Shown: one piece after another, positions 1-32,831 of the stretch
How positions within the stretch are numbered: position 1 is the first letter of the stretch
Layout: each line of letters begins with the position of its first letter
NCBI RefSeq assembly: GCF_024223415.1
Contig: NZ_CP100500.1
Length of the DNA: 64,000 bases
DNA from: Escherichia coli
GTDB taxonomy: Bacteria; Pseudomonadota; Gammaproteobacteria; Enterobacterales; Enterobacteriaceae
Direction: 5' to 3' (one strand)
The notes under the pieces: model-generated
Told to the model about the DNA's origin: nothing
The model's input: the letters and a program-made list of their open reading frames with translations, nothing else
The model's database searches: none
Made by a program: the position numbers and the translations under genes

Positions 1-1
1 T

Positions 2-1555
2 AAAGTGTTCCTTGAAAAATACACCACCGGGTATCCGCAGTTTGAAGAATATCTGACAGGTAAGAGCGATAATACTCCGAAGAGCGCGGCCTGGGCGGCG
101 GAAATTACTGGCGTACCGGAAGCGCAGATAGTCAAACTCGCTGAACTGATGGCGGCGAATCGCACAATGCTGATGGCAGGCTGGGGAATTCAGCGCCAGC
201 AATATGGTGAACAGAAACACTGGATGCTGGTGACGCTGGCGGCGATGTTAGGGCAGATTGGTACACCGGGCGGCGGTTTTGGTTTCTCTTATCATTACTC
301 CAACGGTGGCAACCCGACGCGTGTTGGCGGCGTGCTGCCGGAAATGTCTGCGGCGATTGCCGGACAGGCCAGCGAGGCCGCTGATGATGGCGGAATGACG
401 GCGATTCCTGTTGCCCGTATCGTCGATGCGCTGGAAAATCCTGGCGGCAAATATCAGCATAACGGTAAAGAACAAACGTATCCGAATATCAAAATGATCT
501 GGTGGGCGGGTGGTGGTAACTTTACCCATCACCAGGATACTAATCGTCTGATCAAAGCATGGCAGAAACCGGAGATGATCGTCGTTTCTGAATGCTACTG
601 GACTGCAGCTGCTAAACATGCAGATATCGTATTACCGATCACCACATCGTTTGAGCGCAATGACTTGACGATGACCGGTGATTACAGCAACCAGCATATT
701 GTGCCGATGAAGCAGGCTGTCGCTCCGCAATTTGAAGCGCGTAACGATTTTGACGTGTTTGCCGATCTTGCTGAATTACTGAAACCTGGCGGAAAAGAGA
801 TCTATACCGAAGGTAAAGATGAAATGGCGTGGCTGAAATTTTTCTATGATGCCGCTCAGAAAGGTGCCCGTGCGCAACGCGTCACTATGCCAATGTTTAA
901 TGCCTTCTGGCAGCAAAATAAACTGATCGAAATGCGCCGCAGCGAGAAGAACGAACAGTATGTTCGTTATGGTGATTTCCGCGCCGATCCGGTGAAAAAT
1001 GCGCTGGGTACGCCAAGCGGCAAAATTGAGATTTACTCCAAAACGCTGGAAAAATTTGGCTATAAGGATTGCCCGGCACACCCAACCTGGCTTGCGCCTG
1101 ATGAGTGGAAGGGTACCGCCGACGAGAAGCAGTTGCAGCTTCTGACCGCACATCCGGCACACCGTTTACACAGTCAGCTTAACTATGCGGAACTGCGTAA
1201 AAAATATGCGGTTGCCGATCGTGAACCAATCACTATTCACACCGAAGATGCTGCTCGCTTTGGTATTGCGAATGGTGATCTGGTGCGTGTCTGGAACAAA
1301 CGTGGTCAGATTCTGACAGGTGCGGTGGTGACTGACGGGATCAAAAAAGGCGTGGTATGCGTGCATGAAGGTGCATGGCCAGATCTGGAAAATGGCTTGT
1401 GTAAAAACGGCAGTGCGAACGTGTTAACCGCGGATATCCCCAGCTCGCAGCTGGCAAATGCCTGTGCCGGTAACTCTGCGCTGGTGTATATCGAAAAATA
1501 TACGGGTAACGCACCGAAGTTAACGGCGTTTGATCAGCCAGCTGTTCAGGCGTAA
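2..1555 (+). CDS. torZ: trimethylamine-N-oxide reductase TorZ/BisZ, C-terminal part (5' end outside window)
   Basis: ORF 5..1555 translation reads as the C-terminal region of a molybdopterin oxidoreductase; sits next to cmoB-cmoA as in E. coli. Confidence 0.85.
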
Positions 1556-1599
1556 GACGTGAATAGCGCCCGGAAACGGGCGCAGAGGTTATGCAAACG

Positions 1600-1710
1600 T
1601 AAAGCTGCCTGATGCGCTATGCTTATCAGGCCTACATAGTCCCTGCAATATATTGAATTAGCAAGGTTTTGTAGGCCGGATAAGGCGTTCACGCCGCATC
1701 CGGCAGTAAT
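1600..1710. repeat. REP-like palindromic units in the torZ-cmoB convergent intergenic region
   Basis: Imperfect inverted repeats gcctgatgcgctatgcttatcaggcctaca and gtaggccggataaggcgttcacgccgcatccggca, typical of enterobacterial REP elements; coordinates approximate. Confidence 0.5.
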
Positions 1711-1719
1711 ACCAGACCT

Positions 1720-3867
<2,148 letters not shown>

Positions 3868-3919
3868 ACAAACTCCCTTTAAAATGGCCGATGGCACCTG
3901 TCTATGATAGGTGGCAAAT

Positions 3920-4678
3920 TCAGAAAAGAGAAGATTGCTGTGGAATAGCCGGAACTGCTCCGATCTCTGGAAGCGTTTTACGTAAGTCTTCCCACAGGGT
4001 ATGTACCAGTTCCGGTGCCTGGGCAATGTCTGGCGTATGTAAAAAAAGATAAGGCGTAGTGGTCTGATGCCACTGCGCTAATTTCTGTAACCAGACCTGA
4101 AATAATTCCCGGTTTTGCGTCATATCATCACTACCGATAAAACGGATCAGCGGATTTGTCGCCGTCAGTACAGCATGTACCGGAACTTTAGGTTTTTTTC
4201 GTTGAGCGTCGCGAATAGCTTCACTGTGTGGACGTGCTGCATGAACCGGGCGGCTGTCTAAAATCACCCGATTAACGCCGCGCTGATGTAAACCGCGATT
4301 AAGCGTTTGTTCCTCTTCCCCTTTGGCGAAAAACTGTGGATGGCGGACTTCCACACCATAATTAAATTCGCCAGGGAGAGAATCGAGAAAATGCCAAAGC
4401 GCAGGCAGCTCCCGTGGGCCGAATGTGGCAGGCAGTTGCAGCCAGTATTGCCCAATGCGCGGAGCCAACGGTGACATGCGGGTCAAAAATTCAGTCACTA
4501 AATCATCGCAATGTCGTAATGCTGCCTGATGCGAAATGGTCGCCGGAAACTTAAAACAGAAGCGGAAGTCATCTGTGGTCTGTTCACGCCAGCGCAGGAC
4601 AACCTCGGGTTTCGGCAGGGCGTAAAGCGTGGTGTTGCCCTCCACGCAGTTAACATGACGGGTATTGAAGGCTAACAC
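3920..4678 (-). CDS. yecE: DUF72 protein YecE with 5' end replaced by prophage sequence
   Basis: Body of the protein reads as YecE; the first ~10 codons (MLAFNTRHVN) differ from my recollection of the K-12 N-terminus, and the ORF overlaps the 3' end of the integrase gene. Confidence 0.75.
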   Translation of the reverse strand: MLAFNTRHVNCVEGNTTLYALPKPEVVLRWREQTTDDFRFCFKFPATISHQAALRHCDDLVTEFLTRMSPLAPRIGQYWLQLPATFGPRELPALWHFLDSLPGEFNYGVEVRHPQFFAKGEEEQTLNRGLHQRGVNRVILDSRPVHAARPHSEAIRDAQRKKPKVPVHAVLTATNPLIRFIGSDDMTQNRELFQVWLQKLAQWHQTTTPYLFLHTPDIAQAPELVHTLWEDLRKTLPEIGAVPAIPQQSSLF

Positions 4679-4690
4679 ACTGATTTTAAT
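4640..4690. other. putative prophage attachment junction (attL) within 5' end of yecE
   Basis: Point where YecE-like sequence ends and the integrase C-terminus overlaps; exact core not determinable without the other junction. Confidence 0.4.
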
Positions 4691-5985
4691 AAGTTTCTTG
4701 TGTCACTTTGGTGACCATGGGACATCATTGGGACATAATCTGCCAGCTTCTGATTCAGCATTGCGATCTGTTCTGCATTACTGTCAGTCATCCATGCTCC
4801 GTATACATTGAACACCATCTGGGCACTTGCATGGCCCATCTGGCTGGCAATGAAGCTTGGGTTTGCTCCGGCAGATAATGACCAGCACGCATAAGTGTGT
4901 CGTGACTGGTATGCTTTCCGGTGCCTGATGCCCGCACGCTTAATGGCTGTTTCCCATGAGTCGCCAATAGAATCTACCTTGTAGATAAAACCGACCTGTT
5001 TGCTTTTTCTAACCACCTGGGGGTTAAATACGAAAGTACATTCATGGTTCACTGTACGTCCATATTCACGTAGTTGAACCTTGATGTGGTGCTGCTTACC
5101 CAGTCTTGTCATTTCAGCCTGATTTTTCAGGACACTGATAGCGGGCTGGATAAGATGCACAACCCTGTTTGTACTTGCTTCAGTTTTAGGTAGAGTGAAC
5201 TCACCGAGTTTCGTATAATTGCGCCTGATAGTAATTGTTCCTGCTTTCAGATCGATATCTTCCCAGGCCAGGGAGACCAGTTCACCATGACGCATTCCTG
5301 TGTACACAGCCAATGACCACAGGTTTTTCGTCTGCTGATGTCGGCAAGCATCTATCAGGCGAATAAATTCGTCACGAGTTAGCGGATCTGGCTCTGCCCT
5401 GGCTCTTTTAAGAGGCTTAATTCCCTGGAAGGGATTTGCTTCTAAGTAACCGTGATCTGCAGCAAACTGAAACATTCCAGCGATTGTCGTCATGTAATAA
5501 TTTACAGTAACGACGCTCCGTCCTTTTGCTGCTGCTTTGTTTTTCGTTGAATTCTGGTACCCGGTCAGCAAATCTTTCCTGATATACAGCAATTCCTCTT
5601 TAGTTACCGATGACACCAGTCTGCTGCCTCCAATTTTCGGAACCATCGTTCTTGCAACGGATTCATAGCGATTGAATGCATTTGCAGAGATCTCCATTCG
5701 TTTCAGATCCAGCCACTTTTCTTCAAGTTCCTTCACCGTAATTTCTTTTTTACTTACCCCAAAAGCCTGAAGGTTAGGGGAGTCAGGGAACTGTGCAGCA
5801 TAATCAAAGCTTCCTGTGCGGATGGCAAAACATACCGATGTCCGCAGTTCCCCGGCGATCTTCCTGTTCTTGGCAGTGTCAGGGACACCAAGATTTTCCC
5901 TGACACGTTTACCTTTAAAATTAAACCAGATGCGTAATGTGCCGCCGTGGTTTTCGACGCCTGTTGGATATTTGACTTTATCCAT
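4672..5985 (-). CDS. int: phage integrase (tyrosine recombinase)
   Basis: 437 aa; N-terminal arm-binding-like region and C-terminal catalytic domain with conserved R..H..R..Y context (RHTYACW). Confidence 0.9.
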   Translation of the reverse strand: MDKVKYPTGVENHGGTLRIWFNFKGKRVRENLGVPDTAKNRKIAGELRTSVCFAIRTGSFDYAAQFPDSPNLQAFGVSKKEITVKELEEKWLDLKRMEISANAFNRYESVARTMVPKIGGSRLVSSVTKEELLYIRKDLLTGYQNSTKNKAAAKGRSVVTVNYYMTTIAGMFQFAADHGYLEANPFQGIKPLKRARAEPDPLTRDEFIRLIDACRHQQTKNLWSLAVYTGMRHGELVSLAWEDIDLKAGTITIRRNYTKLGEFTLPKTEASTNRVVHLIQPAISVLKNQAEMTRLGKQHHIKVQLREYGRTVNHECTFVFNPQVVRKSKQVGFIYKVDSIGDSWETAIKRAGIRHRKAYQSRHTYACWSLSAGANPSFIASQMGHASAQMVFNVYGAWMTDSNAEQIAMLNQKLADYVPMMSHGHQSDTRNLLKSVC

Positions 5986-12703: not shown

Positions 12704-13380
12704 CGGCGAGTAGGTACAAAATGATCCGCAACCAACATATTGATTCTGCAATTTCGGGACGTTACACTGTTCCAGCACCTTATAAAGCGGGTGCCGGGAT
12801 TGGAACCCCGGAATTGCATACGGCGATATACGACGCGCCAGCGTCTTTTTTATCGTCCGCGCTCACGCACGCCAGAATTATGGTGGGCTGGGCAGGGGAG
12901 CCGAAAGGCTCGCCGGTTTCCGTATGCGCCGGTAGTTCCAACCCTGTCCAGTTCACCACCAGTGAGATTGGAACCTCCGGTGGTGGAAGTTATCCATTGC
13001 ATACGGAGGCTGCCATCATGGCTACAGTCCCAACTTCCCCATACCTGAAAATCGAAGTCGTCAACGGCAAGGCCGTTATTTTCTCCCTGCATGTTGCCTG
13101 CCATTTCAAGCGCATGCACCAGAACATCGTCGACAAAATCGAGTATCTGAACTGCTCGCGCGAATTTTTTACCCGCAATTTCATACCGGGTACTTATCAC
13201 ATCTATGGTGACTCCCTGCGTGGTTATTACATCACCCTTGATGGTCTGATGATGCTTCAGCTTGGGTTAAGTCTACGCACAATGCGGTACTACGAGAGCT
13301 GCATTGAAGCATTCCAGGAGGCAGGGAACAGCCTGAATCTTACCGCTTTCCGCCGTAATCAGTGGGAGGCGCGTCCATGA
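12700..13380 (+). CDS. hypothetical protein (start uncertain; possibly internal Met at ~13018)
   Basis: ORF 12700..13380; the first ~100 codons are low-complexity and may be non-coding. Confidence 0.35.
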   Translation: MTASRYKMIRNQHIDSAISGRYTVPAPYKAGAGIGTPELHTAIYDAPASFLSSALTHARIMVGWAGEPKGSPVSVCAGSSNPVQFTTSEIGTSGGGSYPLHTEAAIMATVPTSPYLKIEVVNGKAVIFSLHVACHFKRMHQNIVDKIEYLNCSREFFTRNFIPGTYHIYGDSLRGYYITLDGLMMLQLGLSLRTMRYYESCIEAFQEAGNSLNLTAFRRNQWEARP

Positions 13381-18980: not shown

Positions 18981-20087
18981 TCAGAACTGATAAACCAGAC
19001 CAACAGCGACAATATCGTCGGTTGATACTCCTGTTCTTTCAGTGAATTTATTTTTATCGAGCATATTGATTTTGTAATCTATGTATGTAGACATATTTTT
19101 GTTGAAGTAATAAGAAGCCCCTACTTCAACGAATTTTTCAATATATCCGTCATCATGTTTTTTACTAATATCAGTACTGGATGAAAGGTTTTTTGCTTTA
19201 GAGTGGGTATAAGCAAGAGACGGGCGTAATCCAAAGTCGAACTGGTATTGTGCCACAACAGTGAAATCTTCGGTTTTATTCGCCACTCCTGAAATATTAT
19301 CACCATACGATATTGCACGGGTATTATTTGTTTCACCATAACTGGCAGCCAGGTACAGATTATTTGCGTCATATTTTACCCCGGTGGCCCACTGTTCAGC
19401 TTTTTTCCCTTTACCAAGCTCAGCCTTTTTCTGATTTTTAGTACGATCAGCAGCGCCGTATGCTGCGACAAAACCAAATCCTTCATATTCATAGCTGACA
19501 GAGCCACCTACACCCTCTCCGTTTGAAGTATCTGGTTTATCCTTGCGTTCATTTTTTCCCAGATACTGAATTGCAAAGCTAAGCCCATCGACCAGTCCAA
19601 AAAAGTCAGTGTTGCGGTATGTGGCAACACCGCCTACACGACCAACGAAGAAGTTATCCTTTTGCGCTGCGGTAGGTCCAAACTCCGGGAAGACGTCAGT
19701 GTAGCTTAATGCGTCGTACACCACGCCGTAGTTACGACCATAATCAAGAGAGCCAGCATCTGCAAGCTTCAGACCAGCGTATGCCAGGCGAGTCTTGTTT
19801 CCAGTTTGAGCTCCATCCCCTTCAGGGTTGTTCCCCTGGAAATTATATTCCCACTGACCAAAACCAGTAATATAATTATTTATTTGGGTTTCACCTCTGA
19901 ATCCAAGGCGTGCGTAAGTCTGATCTCCGTTTTGGTCCTTATCAGAAGAAAAATAATGTAAACCAACTGCTTTACCGTATAAATCCACTTTGTTTGCATC
20001 TTTATTGTATATTTATGCTGCATTTGAAGACGTTGCCAGAAATACTGATGCTGCTACAGCAGAAAGTGCCACTGTTAAATTTTTCAT
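18981..20087 (-). pseudogene. OmpC/OmpF/NmpC-family porin gene interrupted by an in-frame TAA at codon 25
   Basis: Hand translation from the ATG at ~20087 gives signal peptide MKNLTVALSAVAASVFLATSSNAA, then TAA (20013..20015) where porins have Glu of AEIYNKD, then [15 protein letters not shown]... continuing as ORF 18981..19988. Confidence 0.75.
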
Positions 20088-20685: not shown

Positions 20686-20761
20686 GGCCCTTTAGCTCAG
20701 TGGTGAGAGCGAGCGACTCATAATCGCAAGGGCGCTGGTTCAAATTCAGCAAGGGCCACCA
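20686..20761 (+). tRNA. tRNA with CAU anticodon (Met, or Ile2 if lysidine-modified)
   Basis: Hand-folded cloverleaf: acceptor GGCCCTT/AAGGGCC, D-arm TAGCTCAGTGGTGAGAGC, anticodon loop CTCATAA, T-loop TTCAAAT, 3' CCA; coordinates approximate. Confidence 0.75.
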
Positions 20762-20762
20762 A

Positions 20763-20839
20763 CCGCTACTAGCTCATCAGGAAAGAGCGTCAACCCTTTA
20801 AGTTGAGTGCGCTAGGTTCGATTCCCCGCTGGCGGTCCA
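20763..20839 (+). tRNA. tRNA-like sequence, degenerate (possible tRNA or tRNA pseudogene)
   Basis: D-arm (GCTC...GAGC) and T-loop (GGTTCGATTCC) are tRNA-like and 3' ends in CCA, but T-stem has mismatches and anticodon loop CCTTTAA lacks U33. Confidence 0.35.
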
Positions 20840-23688: not shown

Positions 23689-24309
23689 CCATTACAAAGC
23701 CTATCTACGGGTGGGCTTGATAATGAAACCAGAATTTATTCTGGGAAACCAGTTACGGCAGTACAGCGAAACAACCCAAGCCAGTAAGTGGGGAAATAAC
23801 ACTGGCAGCCACTGAAAGATGAACCTCCTGCCTTATGGCAAAAAAGATTCTTTGTGGTGGCGGACTGATGGAAAGACATCGGTTATTGCAGAGACCATTC
23901 AATGAGTGGTCTCGACAATGGCTTATACCCTACACGGGATAACTTAACTGATATCCCTTTTAACGGATAAAGGTATTCAAGCCTGACATATCATGCGCTG
24001 TATCGTCGCCGTATTCCCGTATTAACAGAGACCGTAGCCCGACGGGGAACTCCTTCTGCGCGAGTGTGCGGGAATAATCAAAAACGATGCACACCGGGTT
24101 TTTACCGCGTTTATGGTTCGCGGGTTTGTCCCTCATGCTCGCCAGTCCGGTGCGATGGTGGAAGAAACCGGAAGCTGTATTACAGAAAGTGCTACTACTG
24201 TATCCTGATGCGATGTATGTAATGTGAGTCAGATAATGGCACAGGATGTGGTGATGTGGCAGTCTGGAACACAGGATATATTGTCAGAATAAGACCCGTA
24301 GGAATAAAA

Positions 24310-24636
24310 ATGAAAAGACGCCTTTCACTACTTTTTCTGTTATCTGCCCTGGCAGTGGGATGCTCGCAGCAAAAAGCTGATGAGCCCCGGCAATTAGTGA
24401 CGGTGTATCCACGATATCCGGAATATGCTGCAGCAAATTATATCAAGGGGCTGGTTGAGGTTAAGTTCGATATTGGTGCTGACGGGACTGTGACACGGAT
24501 CGTTTTTCTCCGCTCAGAGCCTCATAATTTGTTTCGTGATGAAGTGGTGAAGGCCATGGCGAAATGGAGATTTGAAAAGAATAGTCCCCGTCAGGGAGTG
24601 AAGAGACAATTTATCTTTACGCCATCACGTCCCTGA
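24310..24636 (+). CDS. TonB C-terminal-domain-like lipoprotein
   Basis: Internal Met of ORF 24256..24636 gives MKRRLSLLFLLSALAVGCSQQK (lipobox), followed by a TonB-C-like region (YPRYPEYAAANYIKGLVEVKFDIGADGTV). Confidence 0.55.
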   Translation: MKRRLSLLFLLSALAVGCSQQKADEPRQLVTVYPRYPEYAAANYIKGLVEVKFDIGADGTVTRIVFLRSEPHNLFRDEVVKAMAKWRFEKNSPRQGVKRQFIFTPSRP

Positions 24637-25000: not shown

Positions 25001-25252
25001 TTATCGGTTTTGGCTACGCAGCATAGTACAAAACGGACAGGTGCATCCCGGAATGGGGGAGGCGTCACATGTCCCTGTGATGGTTGTTCCGGGTAATGCA
25101 CTGTGTGGGGCATAAAAATGTCCGATAATTTTACTTTCTACCGCAGTTAGTTGATTCGTTGGTCCTGGTAGCACATTGGGCGAGGGTTTAAATGCCAGGC
25201 AACTGAAGGATGATGTTGCAAGGGAGATAGCGAGAATATTTCTGATTTTCAT
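25001..25252 (-). CDS. small secreted Cys-rich protein (hypothetical)
   Basis: ORF 25001..25318; likely start at MKIRNILAISLATSSFSCLA (signal peptide); start uncertain. Confidence 0.3.
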   Translation of the reverse strand: MKIRNILAISLATSSFSCLAFKPSPNVLPGPTNQLTAVESKIIGHFYAPHSALPGTTITGTCDASPIPGCTCPFCTMLRSQNR

Positions 25253-25399
25253 TTGATGATGCCTCTGTGTGAAATGACGGTAAACGACGCACTTGTGCCG
25301 GCACATAATAGCAAGCATCAGAATAGATCAGATTCGATTCTTGCTGTAAGTGATAATTATTCTCGTTTTTTTCGGGTCCTTTCCGGCGATCCAACAGGT

Positions 25400-25560
25400 T
25401 ACGGGGCGTCGACCTCGCGCGTTTTCGCTATTTATGAAAATTTTCCGGGATCCATGTCCGGTTTCTCTGCAAGTTAACTATATGAAAAATATAAAAACAT
25501 GCTTTCTGCGAACCGGACATGTGCAAAAAATGTACAAACAAACCGGACATATGCGTGCGT
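25400..25560. other. cos site: lambda-like cosN (gggcgtcgacct) plus cosB-like R repeats
   Basis: 25401-25446 matches my recollection of lambda cos (GGGCGGCGACCTCGCGGGTTTTCGCTATTTATGAAAATTTTCCGG) with few mismatches; downstream aaccggacat repeated three times (one inverted). Confidence 0.7.
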
Positions 25561-25627
25561 TTGCATAAAGTTGCTCGCAAGATGCATGTTTAAAACGCAT
25601 GAGGGGAGATTTTTTGCGAGGTGAACA

Positions 25628-26137
25628 GTGGCTACGCAGACTGAAGTTGCCAGGCATTTGAGTCTGACCGATCGCCAGCTTCGCAGACTGCAGAAATTGC
25701 CGGGTGCCCCGATATCGAATAAGCGAGGGCAACTGGATCTGGATGCCTGGCGTGATTTTTACATATCGTATCTGAGAAGAAGTAAAAACGATGTGCCTGA
25801 TGGCGATAGCGAAGACGACTATGAGGAGAAATTGCTTATTGCCAGATGGGAACTGACAGCAGAACAGGCTGTTACACAGCAGTTAAAAAATGAGGTGTCA
25901 AAAGGAAAACTTATTGACACCGGATTCTGTATTTTTGCCCTCAGCAAGCTGGCAATGGCGTTATCCAGTACGCTTGATTCCATCCCTTTATCCATGCAAC
26001 GACAGTTTCCTGATTTAACACCGCGCCATCTTGACCATCTGAAAACCCTTATTGCGAAGGGGGCAAATCAGTGTGCGCGGGCAGGGGATAAATTACCGGA
26101 TTTACTCGATGAATATATCAGAGCAACAACTGAATAA
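25628..26137 (+). CDS. nu1: terminase small subunit (Nu1-like)
   Basis: 169 aa with N-terminal HTH, immediately upstream of and overlapping the large terminase gene, just downstream of cos. Confidence 0.7.
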   Translation: MATQTEVARHLSLTDRQLRRLQKLPGAPISNKRGQLDLDAWRDFYISYLRRSKNDVPDGDSEDDYEEKLLIARWELTAEQAVTQQLKNEVSKGKLIDTGFCIFALSKLAMALSSTLDSIPLSMQRQFPDLTPRHLDHLKTLIAKGANQCARAGDKLPDLLDEYIRATTE

Positions 26138-28037
26138 TATGATGAGTGCTGTCACAACAGCATTACAGCCCCTGATAAGGGCATTGCCGGTGACGGCAGT
26201 TGAATGGGCTGATCAAAATTATTATCTGCCTAAAGAATCTTCATATGGTGAGGGAGAATGGAAAACGCTGCCGTTCCAGATCGCCATCATGAACTGTATG
26301 GGCAACGATCTGATTCGCACTGTTAACCTGATTAAATCTGCCCGTGTTGGTTATACAAAGATGTTGCTGGGGGTGGTCGGGTATTTTATTGAGCATAAAT
26401 CCCGAAACAGTCTGCTTTTTCAGCCCACGGATTCTGCCGCTGAAGATTTTATGAAGTCTCACGTGGAGACGACGATTAGGGACGTGCCATGCCTGAAAGA
26501 CCTTTCCCCATGGCTGGGTCGTAAACATCGTGATAATACCCTCACGCTGAAACGCTTTTCATCGGGCGTCGGTTTCTGGTGCCTGGGCGGCGCTGCCGCC
26601 AAAAACTACCGTGAAAAATCCGTGGACGTGGTCTGCTATGACGAACTCTCATCGTTTGAACCTGATGTTGAAAAAGAGGGCTCGCCAACCCTGCTGGGGG
26701 ATAAGCGTATTGAGGGCTCTGTATGGCCAAAATCCATTCGCGGCTCGACGCCTAAAATCAAAGGCTCCTGCCAGATCGAAAAAGCCGCTAACGAGTCGGC
26801 ACATTTCATGCGTTTTTATGTGCCCTGTCCGCACTGTGGGGAGGAGCAGTATCTGAAATTTGGTGATGATGCCTCGGCTTTCGGTCTTAAGTGGGAGAAG
26901 AATAAGCCAGAAAGTGTTTTCTACCTTTGTGAGCATCATGGCTGTGTGATCCATCAGTCTGAGCTTGACCAGAGTAACGGGCGGTGGATCTGTGAAAACA
27001 CGGGGATGTGGACCCGTGACGGTCTGACGTTTTTCAGCGCCCGGGGTGATGAAATTCCGCCGCCGCGCTCCATCACTTTCCATATCTGGACGGCGTACAG
27101 TCCGTTCACCACCTGGGTACAGATAGTCTATGACTGGCTGGATGCACTGAAAGATCCCAACGGCCTGAAAACCTTTGTGAACACCACGCTGGGCGAGACC
27201 TGGGAAGAGGCCGTGGGCGAAAAACTCGATCACCAGGTACTGATGGATAAGGTTGTGCGTTACACGGCGGCGGTGCCTGCCCGGGTGGTTTATCTGACGG
27301 CGGGCATTGACTCGCAGCGAAACCGTTTTGAGATGTATGTCTGGGGATGGGCTCCGGGAGAGGAAGCCTTTCTGGTGGATAAAATCATCATTATGGGACG
27401 TCCCGATGAGGAAGAGACGCTGTTACGTGTGGATGCGGCGATCAACAAAAAATACTGCCATGCAGACGGAACCGAAATGACCATTTCCCGTGTCTGCTGG
27501 GACATCGGGGGGATCGATGGCGAAATCGTTTATCAGAGGTCAAAAAAACACGGTGTTTTCCGGGTGCTGCCGGTAAAAGGCGCATCTGTCTATGGCAAGC
27601 CGGTGATCACCATGCCAAAAACCCGCAATCAGCGGGGCGTGTATCTGTGTGAAGTGGGGACGGACACCGCAAAAGAAATTCTCTATGCCCGTATGAAAGC
27701 CGCTCCCACGCCTGCGGATGAATCCACGTCGTATGCCATCCGTTTTCCTGATGATCCGGAGATTTTTTCGCAGACAGAGGCGCAGCAACTGGTCGCGGAA
27801 GAGCTTGTGGAGAAGTGGGAAAAAGGAAAGATGCGTCTGCTGTGGGATAACAAAAAGCGGCGTAACGAAGCGCTGGACTGCCTGGTGTATGCCTACGCGG
27901 CATTACGTGTGTCCGTGCAACGCTGGCAGCTTGATCTGGCTGTACTGGCAAAATCCCGGGAAGAAGAGACGACCCGGCCAACCCTTAAAGAACTGGCAGC
28001 GAAGCTGTCCGGAGGAGTGAATGGTTACAGTCGCTGA
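26109..28037 (+). CDS. A: terminase large subunit (lambda gpA-like)
   Basis: Start at internal Met of ORF 26052..28037 (MNISEQQLNN...); matches my recollection of lambda gpA along its length (e.g. KRFSSGVGFWCLGG, FYVPCPHCGEEQYLKFGD). Confidence 0.93.
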   Translation: MNISEQQLNNMMSAVTTALQPLIRALPVTAVEWADQNYYLPKESSYGEGEWKTLPFQIAIMNCMGNDLIRTVNLIKSARVGYTKMLLGVVGYFIEHKSRNSLLFQPTDSAAEDFMKSHVETTIRDVPCLKDLSPWLGRKHRDNTLTLKRFSSGVGFWCLGGAAAKNYREKSVDVVCYDELSSFEPDVEKEGSPTLLGDKRIEGSVWPKSIRGSTPKIKGSCQIEKAANESAHFMRFYVPCPHCGEEQYLKFGDDASAFGLKWEKNKPESVFYLCEHHGCVIHQSELDQSNGRWICENTGMWTRDGLTFFSARGDEIPPPRSITFHIWTAYSPFTTWVQIVYDWLDALKDPNGLKTFVNTTLGETWEEAVGEKLDHQVLMDKVVRYTAAVPARVVYLTAGIDSQRNRFEMYVWGWAPGEEAFLVDKIIIMGRPDEEETLLRVDAAINKKYCHADGTEMTISRVCWDIGGIDGEIVYQRSKKHGVFRVLPVKGASVYGKPVITMPKTRNQRGVYLCEVGTDTAKEILYARMKAAPTPADESTSYAIRFPDDPEIFSQTEAQQLVAEELVEKWEKGKMRLLWDNKKRRNEALDCLVYAYAALRVSVQRWQLDLAVLAKSREEETTRPTLKELAAKLSGGVNGYSR

Positions 28038-31752: not shown

Positions 31753-32780
31753 ATGGGATTGTTTACGACCCGCCAGTTACTCGGTTATACCGAACAAAAA
31801 GTGAAATTTCGTGCGCTGTTTCTGGAGCTGTTTTTCCGTCGTACGGTGAATTTCCATACCGAAGAGGTGATGCTGGACAAAATTACCGGAAAAACGCCGG
31901 TGGCGGCCTATGTCTCCCCGGTTGTTGAAGGAAAAGTGCTGCGTCATCGTGGTGGTGAAACCCGCGTGTTGCGTCCGGGCTACGTCAAGCCGAAACACGA
32001 ATTTAATTCCCGGCAGGCGGTTGAGCGCCTTCCTGGTGAAGATCCGGCTCAACTGAACGATCCGGCTTACCGCCGTCTGCGTATCATTACCGATAACCTC
32101 AAACAGGAAGAGCACGCGATTGTCCAGGTGGAAGAAATGCAGGCGGTAAATGCCGTGCTGTATGGCAAATACACCATGGAAGGAGACCAGTTCGAGAAAA
32201 TTGAGGTCGATTTTGGCAGGTCGACGAAGAATAACATTACGCAGGCCAGTGGTAAAAAATGGTCTGAGCACGATCGTGACACGTTCGATCCTGCGCATGA
32301 TATTGACCTCTACTGCGACCAGGCCAGCGGCCTTGTGAATATTGCCATTATGGACGGTACCGTCTGGCGTCTGCTGAATGGTTTTAAGCTGTTCCGCGAA
32401 AAACTGGATACCCGTCGCGGTTCAAATTCGCAACTCGAAACGGCAGTGAAAGACCTGGGGGCGGTGGTGTCTTTCAAAGGGTATTACGGTGATCTGGCCA
32501 TTGTGGTGGCGAAAACGTCTTATGTGGCAGAGGACGGTACCGAAAAACGTTATCTGCCAGACGGCACGCTGGTCCTGGGGAATACTGCTGCAGATGGGAT
32601 CCGTTGTTACGGTGCCATTCAGGATGCACAGGCGTTGTCTGAAGGAGTGGTGCCTCTTCCCGTTATCCGAAACACTGGCTGACGGTGGGGGATCCCGCCC
32701 GTGAATTTACCATGACGCAGTCCGCGCCGCTGATGGTGTTGCCGGACCCGGATGAGTTTGTGGTGGTACAGGTGAAATAA
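31753..32780 (+). pseudogene. E: major capsid protein gpE with a +1/-1 frame break near 32660
   Basis: ORF 31753..32682 is lambda gpE-like but ends ...EGVVPLPVIRNTG*; the expected C-terminus (RYPKHWLTGGDPAREFTMTQSAPLMVLPDPDEFVVVQVK*) continues in another frame to 32780; break lies in a C-run (cttcccgtt). Confidence 0.7.
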
Positions 32781-32831
32781 TCCGTGAGCGGGGGCGAAAT
32801 GCCCCCGTGTCTTTTTTCACAGGGGGCTGAT

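What the first reader, a model, noticed from the sequence alone, without database searches (positions are those of the whole stretch)
25400..25560. Near-lambda cos site with one cosN substitution and three R-like repeats
The sequence around 25401-25446 is nearly identical to my recollection of lambda cos, with gggcgtcgacct in place of the 12-nt cohesive end gggcggcgacct, and aaccggacat-type repeats downstream in the cosB position before the small terminase gene. This gives a precise genome end for the phage if it is inducible.
Basis: partly seen in the sequence, partly recalled or inferred. Interest (0 to 1): 0.35.

Follow-up and report, generated by a model that had tools for sequence, protein, structure and literature searches.

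The report
Lambda-type cos site, rare cosN allele
This is the DNA-packaging (cos) site of a lambda-like E. coli prophage, ordinary in kind, but with a rare one-base variant of the cohesive end and its own set of small-terminase binding boxes, which also occur as the unexplained second cos site of the satellite element EcCICFT073.

Summary
From cosQ (25374) through cosN (25404-25415) to bp 45 of the predicted left end, the window matches lambda at 72 of 78 positions without gaps. The 12-nt cohesive end is GGGCGTCGACCT, lambda with G6T. Three exact AACCGGACAT boxes lie at bp 51-60 (inverted), 108-117 and 138-147, ahead of a Nu1-family small terminase (25628-26137) and a gpA-type large terminase that is 66% identical to lambda gpA.

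R3, the IHF-like I1 site and R2 sit where they do in lambda and phage 21, but the box sequence and the terminase DNA-binding domain differ. In ten related loci R3 and R2 stay 57 bp apart and change together. Their eighth base tracks terminase residue 20, so they are very probably its binding sites.

T6 is a rare natural allele: about 24 E. coli sites against about 1348 with G. It occurs on at least four cosB backgrounds, including a prophage with no annotated gene defect.

This particular prophage is probably not inducible. Its major capsid gene has a 1-bp deletion, and its two host junctions (yecE, yciE-trp) lie 640 kb apart in K-12.

In passing: cos2 of the PICI EcCICFT073 carries this same cosB.

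The parts
25374..25380 (+). cosQ (GGGTCCT), the packaging-termination signal, at bp -29 to -23 from the left end
   Evidence: Identical in sequence and spacing to lambda and phage 21. Conserved in related loci from five genera.
25404..25415 (+). cosN cohesive-end sequence GGGCGTCGACCT. The predicted nicks fall between 25403/25404 on the top strand and 25415/25416 on the bottom strand. The variant base T6 is at 25409.
   Evidence: 11/12 identical to lambda, with the flanking ACG and CGCG retained. The allele is rare: 24 places in 15 E. coli genomes against 1348 places in 1231 genomes for G.
25421..25453 (+). I2-equivalent AT-rich spacer between cosN and cosB (bp 18-50)
   Evidence: bp 18-45 are identical to lambda. 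The I2 extent is taken from PMC4856287.
25453..25463 (-). R3 box (CATGTCCGGTT on the + strand, the reverse complement of AACCGGACATG), bp 50-60
   Evidence: Perfect 11-nt inverted repeat with R2. Same position as R3 of lambda (50-65) and phage 21 (50-65). Co-varies with R2 in 10 loci.
25475..25487 (-). I1-like IHF site TAACTATATGAAA, bp 72-84
   Evidence: Two mismatches to WATCAANNNNTTR, the same count as lambda's own I1, and the same position (lambda 74-86, phage 21 72-86). Relatives have a perfect consensus, TAACCAATTGATT, at this place.
25511..25521 (+). R2 box AACCGGACATG, bp 108-118
   Evidence: The R3-to-R2 start-to-start distance is 57 bp in all 10 loci examined.
25541..25550 (+). R1 box AACCGGACAT, bp 138-147, in direct orientation to R2
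   Evidence: Poorly conserved in relatives, as expected of an accessory site.
25628..26137 (+). Small terminase (TerS, 169 aa, GTG start)
   Evidence: Pfam Phage_Nu1 matches only residues 49-150. It is 32-34% identical to lambda Nu1 and phage 21 gp1, and identical to the PhiR12_1 Nu1. The N-terminus is predicted as a helix-turn-helix with a wing and resembles MerR-type domains and PDB entry 6hn7 (RppC-TerS complex), chain B, only weakly.
26109..28037 (+). Large terminase (TerL, 642 aa)
   Evidence: Full-length GpA_ATPase and GpA_nuclease domains. 66% identical to lambda gpA over 639 aligned residues.
31753..32781 (+). Major capsid gene with a 1-bp deletion at about 32652, which truncates the product to 309 aa instead of 342
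   Evidence: Translation and alignment against strain B771. It is the only uncompensated indel within a late gene across the 22-kb late region shared with B771.

Best explanation
This is the cos site of a lambda-type packaging module. By analogy with lambda and phage 21, the sequence of events would be as follows. [quoted passage not shown] An IHF-induced bend at I1 brings the two boxes together, and R1 acts as an accessory site. [quoted passage not shown] The cosB boxes and the terminase DNA-binding domain form a separate recognition class: the TerS N-terminus reads MATQxEVA and the box is AACCGGAnnT. The G6T change is a rare natural allele at the centre of cosN, outside the most conserved positions, and is probably tolerated. 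Shown here: the sequence anatomy, its conservation, the box-protein covariation and the allele distribution. Inferred: protein binding, IHF bending, the nick positions and tolerance of T6.
For: Similarity to lambda: 72/78 identity from cosQ to bp 45, and 43/45 over bp 1-45.

Geometry: in the window R3 is at bp 51-60, I1 at 72-84 and R2 at 108-117. In lambda the boxes located are R3 53-67, I1 74-86 and R2 109-124. In phage 21 the annotated sites are R3 50-65, I1 72-86 and R2 107-122.

Chance: 4 exact boxes against 0.19 expected, three of them clustered.

Genes: Nu1-family and gpA-family terminase genes follow directly.

Footprinting across E. coli, Klebsiella, Salmonella, Citrobacter and Enterobacter: R3 and R2 are always perfect inverted copies 57 bp apart while the spacers diverge. 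The box variants ..GGACAT..GGAAAT and ..GGAAGT change together in R3 and R2.

Protein-DNA covariation: TerS residue 20 is R with ..GGACAT and D or N with ..GGAAAT or ..GGAAGT. A prediction made for two further loci before their DNA was read was met.

Viability of the class: PhiR12 phages, whose records name E. coli K-12 MG1655 or E. coli C as host, carry the same TerS and cosB.

The T6 allele: it occurs on at least four cosB backgrounds. In B771 it sits in a prophage whose annotated genes carry no pseudogene or partial flag. Position 6 is A in a Salmonella relative. As another paper summarises Vahanian 2017, only the first four bases and the two bases flanking each nick are highly conserved (PMC9303873).
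Against: No virion ends, binding data or cleavage assays exist for this class.

Feiss et al. state that the left half of cosN (bp 1-6) is under selection, and that G2C lowers yield about 10-fold (PMC4669245). A cost of T6 therefore cannot be excluded.

T6 makes up only about 1.5-2% of lambda-type sites. It was not found in the two sequence contexts searched against 50,697 phage records.

The I1 site here has two mismatches to the IHF consensus.

R1 is direct to R2, whereas in lambda and phage 21 it is inverted.

The structural match of the TerS N-terminus to the TerS-containing entry 6hn7 is weak: Foldseek E = 2, rmsd 2.6 A over 58 columns. There is no sequence match to any PDB chain.
Confidence: 0.85

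Rival explanations
1. The site is a decaying remnant. G6T would then be a disabling mutation in a dead prophage, and the predicted end would never be formed.
For: This copy has a frameshifted capsid gene and mismatched host junctions. T6 is rare. It was not found in the two sequence contexts searched in the phage collection. The left half of cosN is reported to be sensitive to mutation.
Against: The identical 311-bp cos region occurs in three other complete genomes. In B771 it lies in a prophage whose annotated genes carry no pseudogene or partial flag. The late region here differs from B771 by only one frameshifting indel within a gene. T6 is found on four unrelated cosB backgrounds, which random decay would not produce.
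Confidence: 0.1
2. The cos belongs to a satellite (PICI) that lies next to phage genes, not to the phage itself.
For: The same cosB occurs as cos2 of the PICI EcCICFT073. It also occurs in other loci with two cos sites.
Against: Here a single cos is followed at once by terS, terL, portal, protease, capsid and tail genes in lambda order. There is no rpp gene and no second inverted cos in the window.
Confidence: 0.02
3. The AACCGGACAT boxes are not terminase sites. They could be operators for another regulator, or repeats without function.
For: No binding data exist. One further exact copy lies at 50679, outside cos.
Against: The boxes hold the positions and spacing of R3 and R2 in lambda and phage 21. 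They co-vary with each other and with a residue in the predicted recognition helix of the adjacent TerS. They travel with cosN even where no terS gene follows, as in PICI cos2.
Confidence: 0.05

Closest known systems
Bacteriophage lambda cos (cosQ-cosN-I2-cosB with R3, I1, R2, R1; Nu1 and gpA terminase)
   Same: cosQ sequence and spacing match. The 12-nt end matches at 11/12 and bp 18-45 are identical. R3, I1 and R2 sit at the same distances from the nick, R3 and R2 are inverted about 57-58 bp apart, the gene order is the same, and TerL is 66% identical.
   Different: The R-box sequence differs (AACCGGACAT against CGTTTCC-type). TerS is only about 33% identical, and its N-terminal DNA-binding part falls outside the Pfam Nu1 match. 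R1 is direct, not inverted, to R2. cosN has T at position 6. terS starts at bp 225 against 191 in lambda.
Phage 21 cos (M81255, annotated R4, I2, R3, I1, R2, R1, I0)
   Same: The geometry is the same (R3 50-65, I1 72-86, R2 107-122). The phage 21 box core CATGTCGG resembles the window's CATGTCCGG apart from one extra C. The upstream flank is 93% identical.
   Different: The TerS recognition helix differs (DPRTIERWQS against TDRQLRRLQK). The box is longer by one base, R1 has the opposite orientation, and phage 21's cosN is canonical.
Escherichia phages PhiR12_1 to PhiR12_5 (PV340549-PV340554)
   Same: TerS is identical. R3, I1, R2 and R1 have the same sequences and spacing. These are the only close matches to this TerS N-terminus among 50,697 phage records.
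   Different: Their cosN is canonical (G6). The sequence between cosQ and cosN differs, and so does the stretch between R1 and terS.
cos2 of the phage-inducible chromosomal island EcCICFT073 (Fillol-Salom 2018 and 2019)
   Same: cosQ, cosN, I2, R3, I1, R2 and R1 align with the window over about 150 bp with only a few substitutions, and with the same spacing.
   Different: cosN is canonical (G6). No terminase gene follows. It lies convergent with cos1 across rppA. Its published role is unclear: it was not required for transfer by lambda or phi80.
Salmonella relative with the cohesive-end differences reported for Gifsy-1
   Same: The Salmonella homologue P0022 is 68% identical in TerS and has the same cosB layout. 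Its cohesive end, GGGCGGCAGCGT, differs from lambda at positions 8, 9 and 11, the positions reported for Gifsy-1.
   Different: Box variant AACCGGAAAT with TerS N20. I did not retrieve the Gifsy-1 sequence itself, so the identification with Gifsy-1 is an inference.

Membership tests
Lambda-like cos site (12-nt 5' cohesive ends related to lambda's; definition of Feiss et al., PMC4669245) | 12-bp cosN with significant identity to GGGCGGCGACCT and conserved CG dinucleotides flanking both nick positions | tested here: met
   GGGCGTCGACCT, 11/12, flanked by ACG| and |CGCG.
Lambda-like cos site | Conserved 7-bp cosQ at a fixed distance upstream of cosN | tested here: met
   GGGTCCT at bp -29 to -23, the same as in lambda and phage 21.
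Lambda-like cos site | Complex cosB: R3 and R2 in inverted orientation, an IHF site I1 between them, and R1 beyond | tested here: met
   R3 and R2 form a perfect 11-nt inverted repeat with starts 57 bp apart, and I1-like TAACTATATGAAA lies between them. The I1 match is weak here (2 mismatches) but perfect in relatives. The orientation of R1 differs from lambda.
Lambda-like cos site | Adjacent genes for a Nu1-family small terminase and a gpA-family large terminase | tested here: met
   Pfam Phage_Nu1 at 1e-18. GpA_ATPase and GpA_nuclease match at full length. 66% identity to lambda gpA.
Lambda-like cos site | Virion DNA actually ends in complementary 12-nt 5' overhangs at this site | not testable with these tools
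   This needs end sequencing of virion DNA after induction.
Lambda-like cos site | [quoted passage not shown] | tested here: inconclusive
   The predicted secondary structure fits: helix 4-10, helix 15-22, a loop or wing, then helix 38-54, with pLDDT about 80. Fold matches are weak: MerR-type domains, and PDB entry 6hn7 chain B at rmsd 2.6 A with E = 2. Covariation between box and residue 20 supports binding. There is no direct binding test.
Lambda packaging specificity (cosB-lambda with Nu1-lambda) | R boxes of the CGTTTCC type and the Nu1 recognition helix of lambda | tested here: not met
   The boxes are AACCGGACAT. The helix is TDRQLRRLQK against SIRTIQNWQE in lambda.
Phage 21 packaging specificity | R boxes with a CATGTCGG core and the gp1 recognition helix of phage 21 | tested here: not met
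   The core is CATGTCCGG, one base longer. The helix differs and TerS is 31-34% identical.
PICI cos of the Rpp type (cos1 of EcCICFT073) | A single R3-like site with no I1, R2 or R1, followed by an rpp gene about 100 bp from cosN | tested here: not met
   Three boxes plus I1 are present, followed by terS and terL. There is no rpp gene.

The most novel reading that the evidence does not exclude
The AACCGGAnnT boxes, together with the MATQxEVA-type small terminase, may define a further packaging-specificity class among lambda-like cos phages, one not yet characterised. Sub-specificities within it would be set by TerS residue 20 and box position 8. The so far unexplained second cos site (cos2) of PICIs such as EcCICFT073 would then be a copy of a phage cosB of this class; in other islands it copies the GGTTGTTGT / MAFLLNKSD class. 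On this reading an island carries two routes to packaging: cos1 for Rpp-mediated hijacking of lambda-, phage 21- and phi80-type terminases, and cos2 for direct, Rpp-independent packaging by helpers of the other terminase classes.
Probability: 0.45. Interest if true: 0.55.

Novelty: new member of a known kind. Interest (0 to 1): 0.25.

Why it matters
For this window it matters little. The finding places the phage genome end at 25403/25404 and identifies the packaging module. Three points have wider interest.

First, natural variation at cosN reaches position 6, at the boundary of the half that Feiss and colleagues describe as conserved.

Second, a common E. coli terminase/cosB class (about 14% of lambda-type cos sites in a capped IMG/VR sample) has a readable protein-DNA covariation that could be used to study packaging specificity.

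Third, the same cosB is the second cos site of a well-studied PICI. That gives a testable answer to a question its discoverers left open: why some islands carry two cos sites.

Tried and rejected
- **att sites.** I searched for att direct repeats between the int-proximal junction (3300-4800) and the right end (44000-64000). Only chance 11-12-mers were found. This fits a hybrid prophage but does not locate its ends.
- **PDB by sequence.** A TerS search gave no meaningful hit.
- **PDB by fold.** A Foldseek search with the predicted model gave no match at E <= 0.001. Only weak MerR-type and 6hn7 resemblances appeared, so the fold claim is left inconclusive.
- **Papers not held.** Vahanian et al. 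2017 on natural cosN variation and Higgins & Becker 1994 could not be read. Xu & Feiss 1991 is not listed with a PMC id. I therefore could not check whether a position-6 mutant has been measured.
- **Sequenced phages with T6.** Two searches of the phage collection found none. They cover only two flank contexts.
- **IHF scan.** A scan of the whole window at no more than 1 mismatch gave no excess over chance and no hit inside cosB. The I1 assignment rests on position and on the relatives.
- **Promoter and terminator scan around cos.** Nothing above chance.
- **Misplaced coordinates.** My first alignments of CFT073 cos2 and of L128 used wrong coordinates. cos2 was redone.

Full report
**What is there.** The stretch 25374-25627 lies between the lysis region of a lambdoid E. 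coli prophage and its terminase genes. It contains:
- cosQ GGGTCCT at 25374-25380;
- the 12-nt cohesive-end sequence GGGCGTCGACCT at 25404-25415;
- an AT-rich segment at 25421-25453;
- three exact copies of AACCGGACAT at 25454-25463 (minus strand), 25511-25520 and 25541-25550.

Exact copies of this 10-mer number 4 in the whole window against 0.19 expected, and no shuffle reached 4. The ORF that follows (25628-26137) matches Pfam Phage_Nu1. The next ORF (26109-28037) has complete GpA_ATPase and GpA_nuclease domains and is 66% identical to lambda gpA.

**Comparison with lambda and phage 21.** From cosQ to bp 45 of the predicted left end, the window matches lambda at 72 of 78 positions without gaps, and phage 21 at 71 of 78. 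Against NC_001416, bp 1-45 differ only at position 6 (G to T) and position 17 (G to C). After bp 45 similarity ends.

The layout of the diverged part is nevertheless the same:

| Site | Window (bp from left end) | Lambda | Phage 21 (annotated in M81255) |
|---|---|---|---|
| R3 | 51-60 | 53-67 | 50-65 |
| I1 | 72-84 | 74-86 | 72-86 |
| R2 | 108-117 | 109-124 | 107-122 |

The lambda columns are the boxes located; the other positions come. R3 and R2 are inverted relative to each other, as in lambda, where an IHF bend at I1 is thought to let a TerS dimer dock on both (PMC4669245). Two details differ. R1 (bp 138-147) is direct to R2 instead of inverted. The I1-like site has two mismatches to the IHF consensus, the same count as lambda's own I1.

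**The recognition class.** The small terminase is only 32-34% identical to lambda Nu1 and phage 21 gp1, and the Pfam match covers only residues 49-150. The N-terminal DNA-binding part is therefore different. Its predicted structure is helix, turn, helix, loop, then a long helix. It resembles MerR-type winged-helix domains, and chain B of PDB entry 6hn7 (the RppC-TerS complex), only weakly. No PDB chain matches by sequence.

Homologues with this N-terminus (MATQxEVA...) are common in E. coli, Klebsiella, Salmonella, Citrobacter and Enterobacter. I fetched the DNA upstream of seven such genes. With the window, PhiR12_1 and one PICI site, this makes ten loci. The results:
- In all ten, R3 and R2 are perfect inverted copies of each other with starts exactly 57 bp apart, while the spacers diverge.
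- The boxes come in three versions, ..GGACAT, ..GGAAAT and ..GGAAGT, and R3 and R2 always change together.
- TerS residue 20, in the predicted recognition helix, is R with ..GGACAT and D or N with the other two.
- I predicted the box type of two further loci from their protein sequences before reading their DNA. Both predictions were met.
- Several relatives have a perfect IHF consensus at I1 (TAACCAATTGATT).

This is good indirect evidence that the boxes are the terminase's binding sites. No binding experiment exists.

Among 50,697 phage records, the only close matches to this TerS N-terminus are the five PhiR12 phages. They have the same cosB with a canonical cosN. The core of phage 21's R box, CATGTCGG, differs from the window's CATGTCCGG by one base.

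**The G6T substitution.**
- *Frequency in viral contigs.* In a capped IMG/VR sample of lambda-type cosN sites, position 6 was G 129 times, T twice and A twice. A scan specific to T6 found 7 loci.
- *Frequency in E. coli.* In 5,426 complete genomes, a 45-mer that can only match if T6 is present hit 24 places in 15 genomes. The same 45-mer with G hit 1,348 places in 1,231 genomes.
- *Backgrounds.* T6 occurs on at least four different cosB backgrounds, including PICI cos sites. In strain B771 it lies in a prophage whose annotated genes carry no pseudogene or partial flag.
- *Related variation.* A Salmonella relative has A at position 6.
- *What the literature says.* Feiss et al. describe bp 7-12 as freely variable and the left half as conserved (PMC4669245). 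A later survey, as summarised by another paper, puts the strong conservation on the first four bases and the two bases flanking each nick (PMC9303873).

T6 is therefore a rare natural allele just outside the most conserved core, and is probably tolerated. It was not found in the two sequence contexts searched in the phage collection. I could not find any measurement of a position-6 mutant.

**Is this copy inducible?** Probably not.
- The major capsid gene has a 1-bp deletion at about 32652, which removes the last 40 or so residues. It is the only uncompensated indel within a late gene in the 22 kb shared with B771.
- The two ends of the prophage do not belong together. The integrase end abuts yecE-yecN-cmoA-cmoB-torZ, and the tail-fibre end abuts yciE-yciF-trpABCDE. 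In K-12 these neighbourhoods lie at 1.95 Mb and 1.31 Mb.
- In strain DG341-1 a prophage with a closely similar late region (97% identical) and the same right junction (99% identical) sits normally between ompW and yciE, with its own, different integrase.
- No att repeat was found.

The simplest reading is a recombination between two lambdoid prophages, one at yecE and one at ompW-yciE. That would invert the chromosome segment between them. An assembly error cannot be excluded.

**Seen in passing.** The PICI EcCICFT073 has two convergent cos sites flanking the gene I take to be rppA. Its cos2 carries the window's cosB complete, with R3, I1, R2 and R1 at the same spacing. Its discoverers reported finding no phage cosB in the island and asked why some islands have two cos sites (PMC6092414 and PMC6739421). 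In IMG/VR loci with two cos sites, an Rpp-type site is paired with this class or with a GGTTGTTGT class. The GGTTGTTGT class elsewhere precedes a terminase that begins MAFLLNKSD. This suggests that cos2 is a phage-type site for direct packaging by helpers of those terminase classes.

**Verdict.** The observation and its interpretation hold. The site is an ordinary member of the lambda cos family. It has its own cosB and terminase recognition class and a rare cosN allele, and it sits in a prophage copy that is probably locked in and capsid-defective.

Noticed in passing
L130 (E. coli CFT073, NC_004431.1 1386883-1388983): cos2 on the minus strand, cosN at about 1417-1428 of the locus: cos2 of the PICI EcCICFT073 carries a complete copy of the window's cosB: R3 ATGTCCGGTT, an I1-like site, then R2 and R1 AACCGGACAT at the same spacing. 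No terminase gene follows. The published papers say no phage cosB was found in the island and ask why some PICIs have two cos sites. In IMG/VR loci with two cos sites, Rpp-type sites pair with this class or with a GGTTGTTGT class.
   Followed up: partly
window 31753-32781, deletion at about 32652: The major capsid gene has a 1-bp deletion relative to strain B771 (GTGGTGGCC becomes GTGGTGCC). The product is truncated to 309 aa instead of 342. This is either a real inactivating mutation or a sequencing error.
   Followed up: yes
window 1-5985 and 52020-63943: The prophage is flanked by torZ-cmoB-cmoA-yecN-yecE plus an integrase on the left and by yciE-yciF-trpABCDE on the right. In K-12 these lie about 640 kb apart on either side of the terminus region. 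In strain DG341-1 a prophage with a closely similar late region and the same right junction sits between ompW and yciE. This suggests an inversion by recombination between two prophages, or a misassembly.
   Followed up: partly
window 12775-12963 (+) and 51426-51614 (-): Two isrK plus C4-antisense RNA pairs (Rfam). The first lies just downstream of a KilA-N/ANT antirepressor-like gene in the early region. The second lies in inverted orientation beside an ORF6N/antirepressor-like remnant at the right end, close to a 44-nt repeat (50726 and 51468).
   Followed up: no
window 18981-19988 (-), 20686-20839 (+), 24256-24636 (+), 25001-25253 (-), 47876-49285 (+): Cargo genes are scattered through the prophage: a porin, tRNA-Met and tRNA-Lys upstream of the lysis genes, and a TonB_C-domain lipoprotein-like ORF. 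A small ORF with a signal-peptide-like start (MKIRNILAISLATSSFSCLA), with no family match, lies just upstream of cos. A YadA-anchor adhesin-like protein lies after the tail fibres.
   Followed up: no
E. coli RefSeq genomes and IMG/VR loci L010, L040, L125-L129: T6 sites cluster: the 15 genomes hold 24 T6 places, and 8 of the 15 have two or three. The PICI in L125 has T6 at both of its cos sites. T6 is usually linked to C at bp 17 (7 of 10 T6 sites, against 11 of 132 G6 sites). This suggests that a short cosN segment spreads between co-resident elements by recombination.
   Followed up: partly
proteins P0069 and P0073; loci L126 and L127: Small terminases with an unrelated N-terminus (MAFLLNKSD...) share the C-terminal two-thirds with the window's TerS. 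They sit behind a cosB with GGTTGTTGT boxes arranged R3(+), R2(-), R1(+). This looks like domain swapping between recognition classes.
   Followed up: partly
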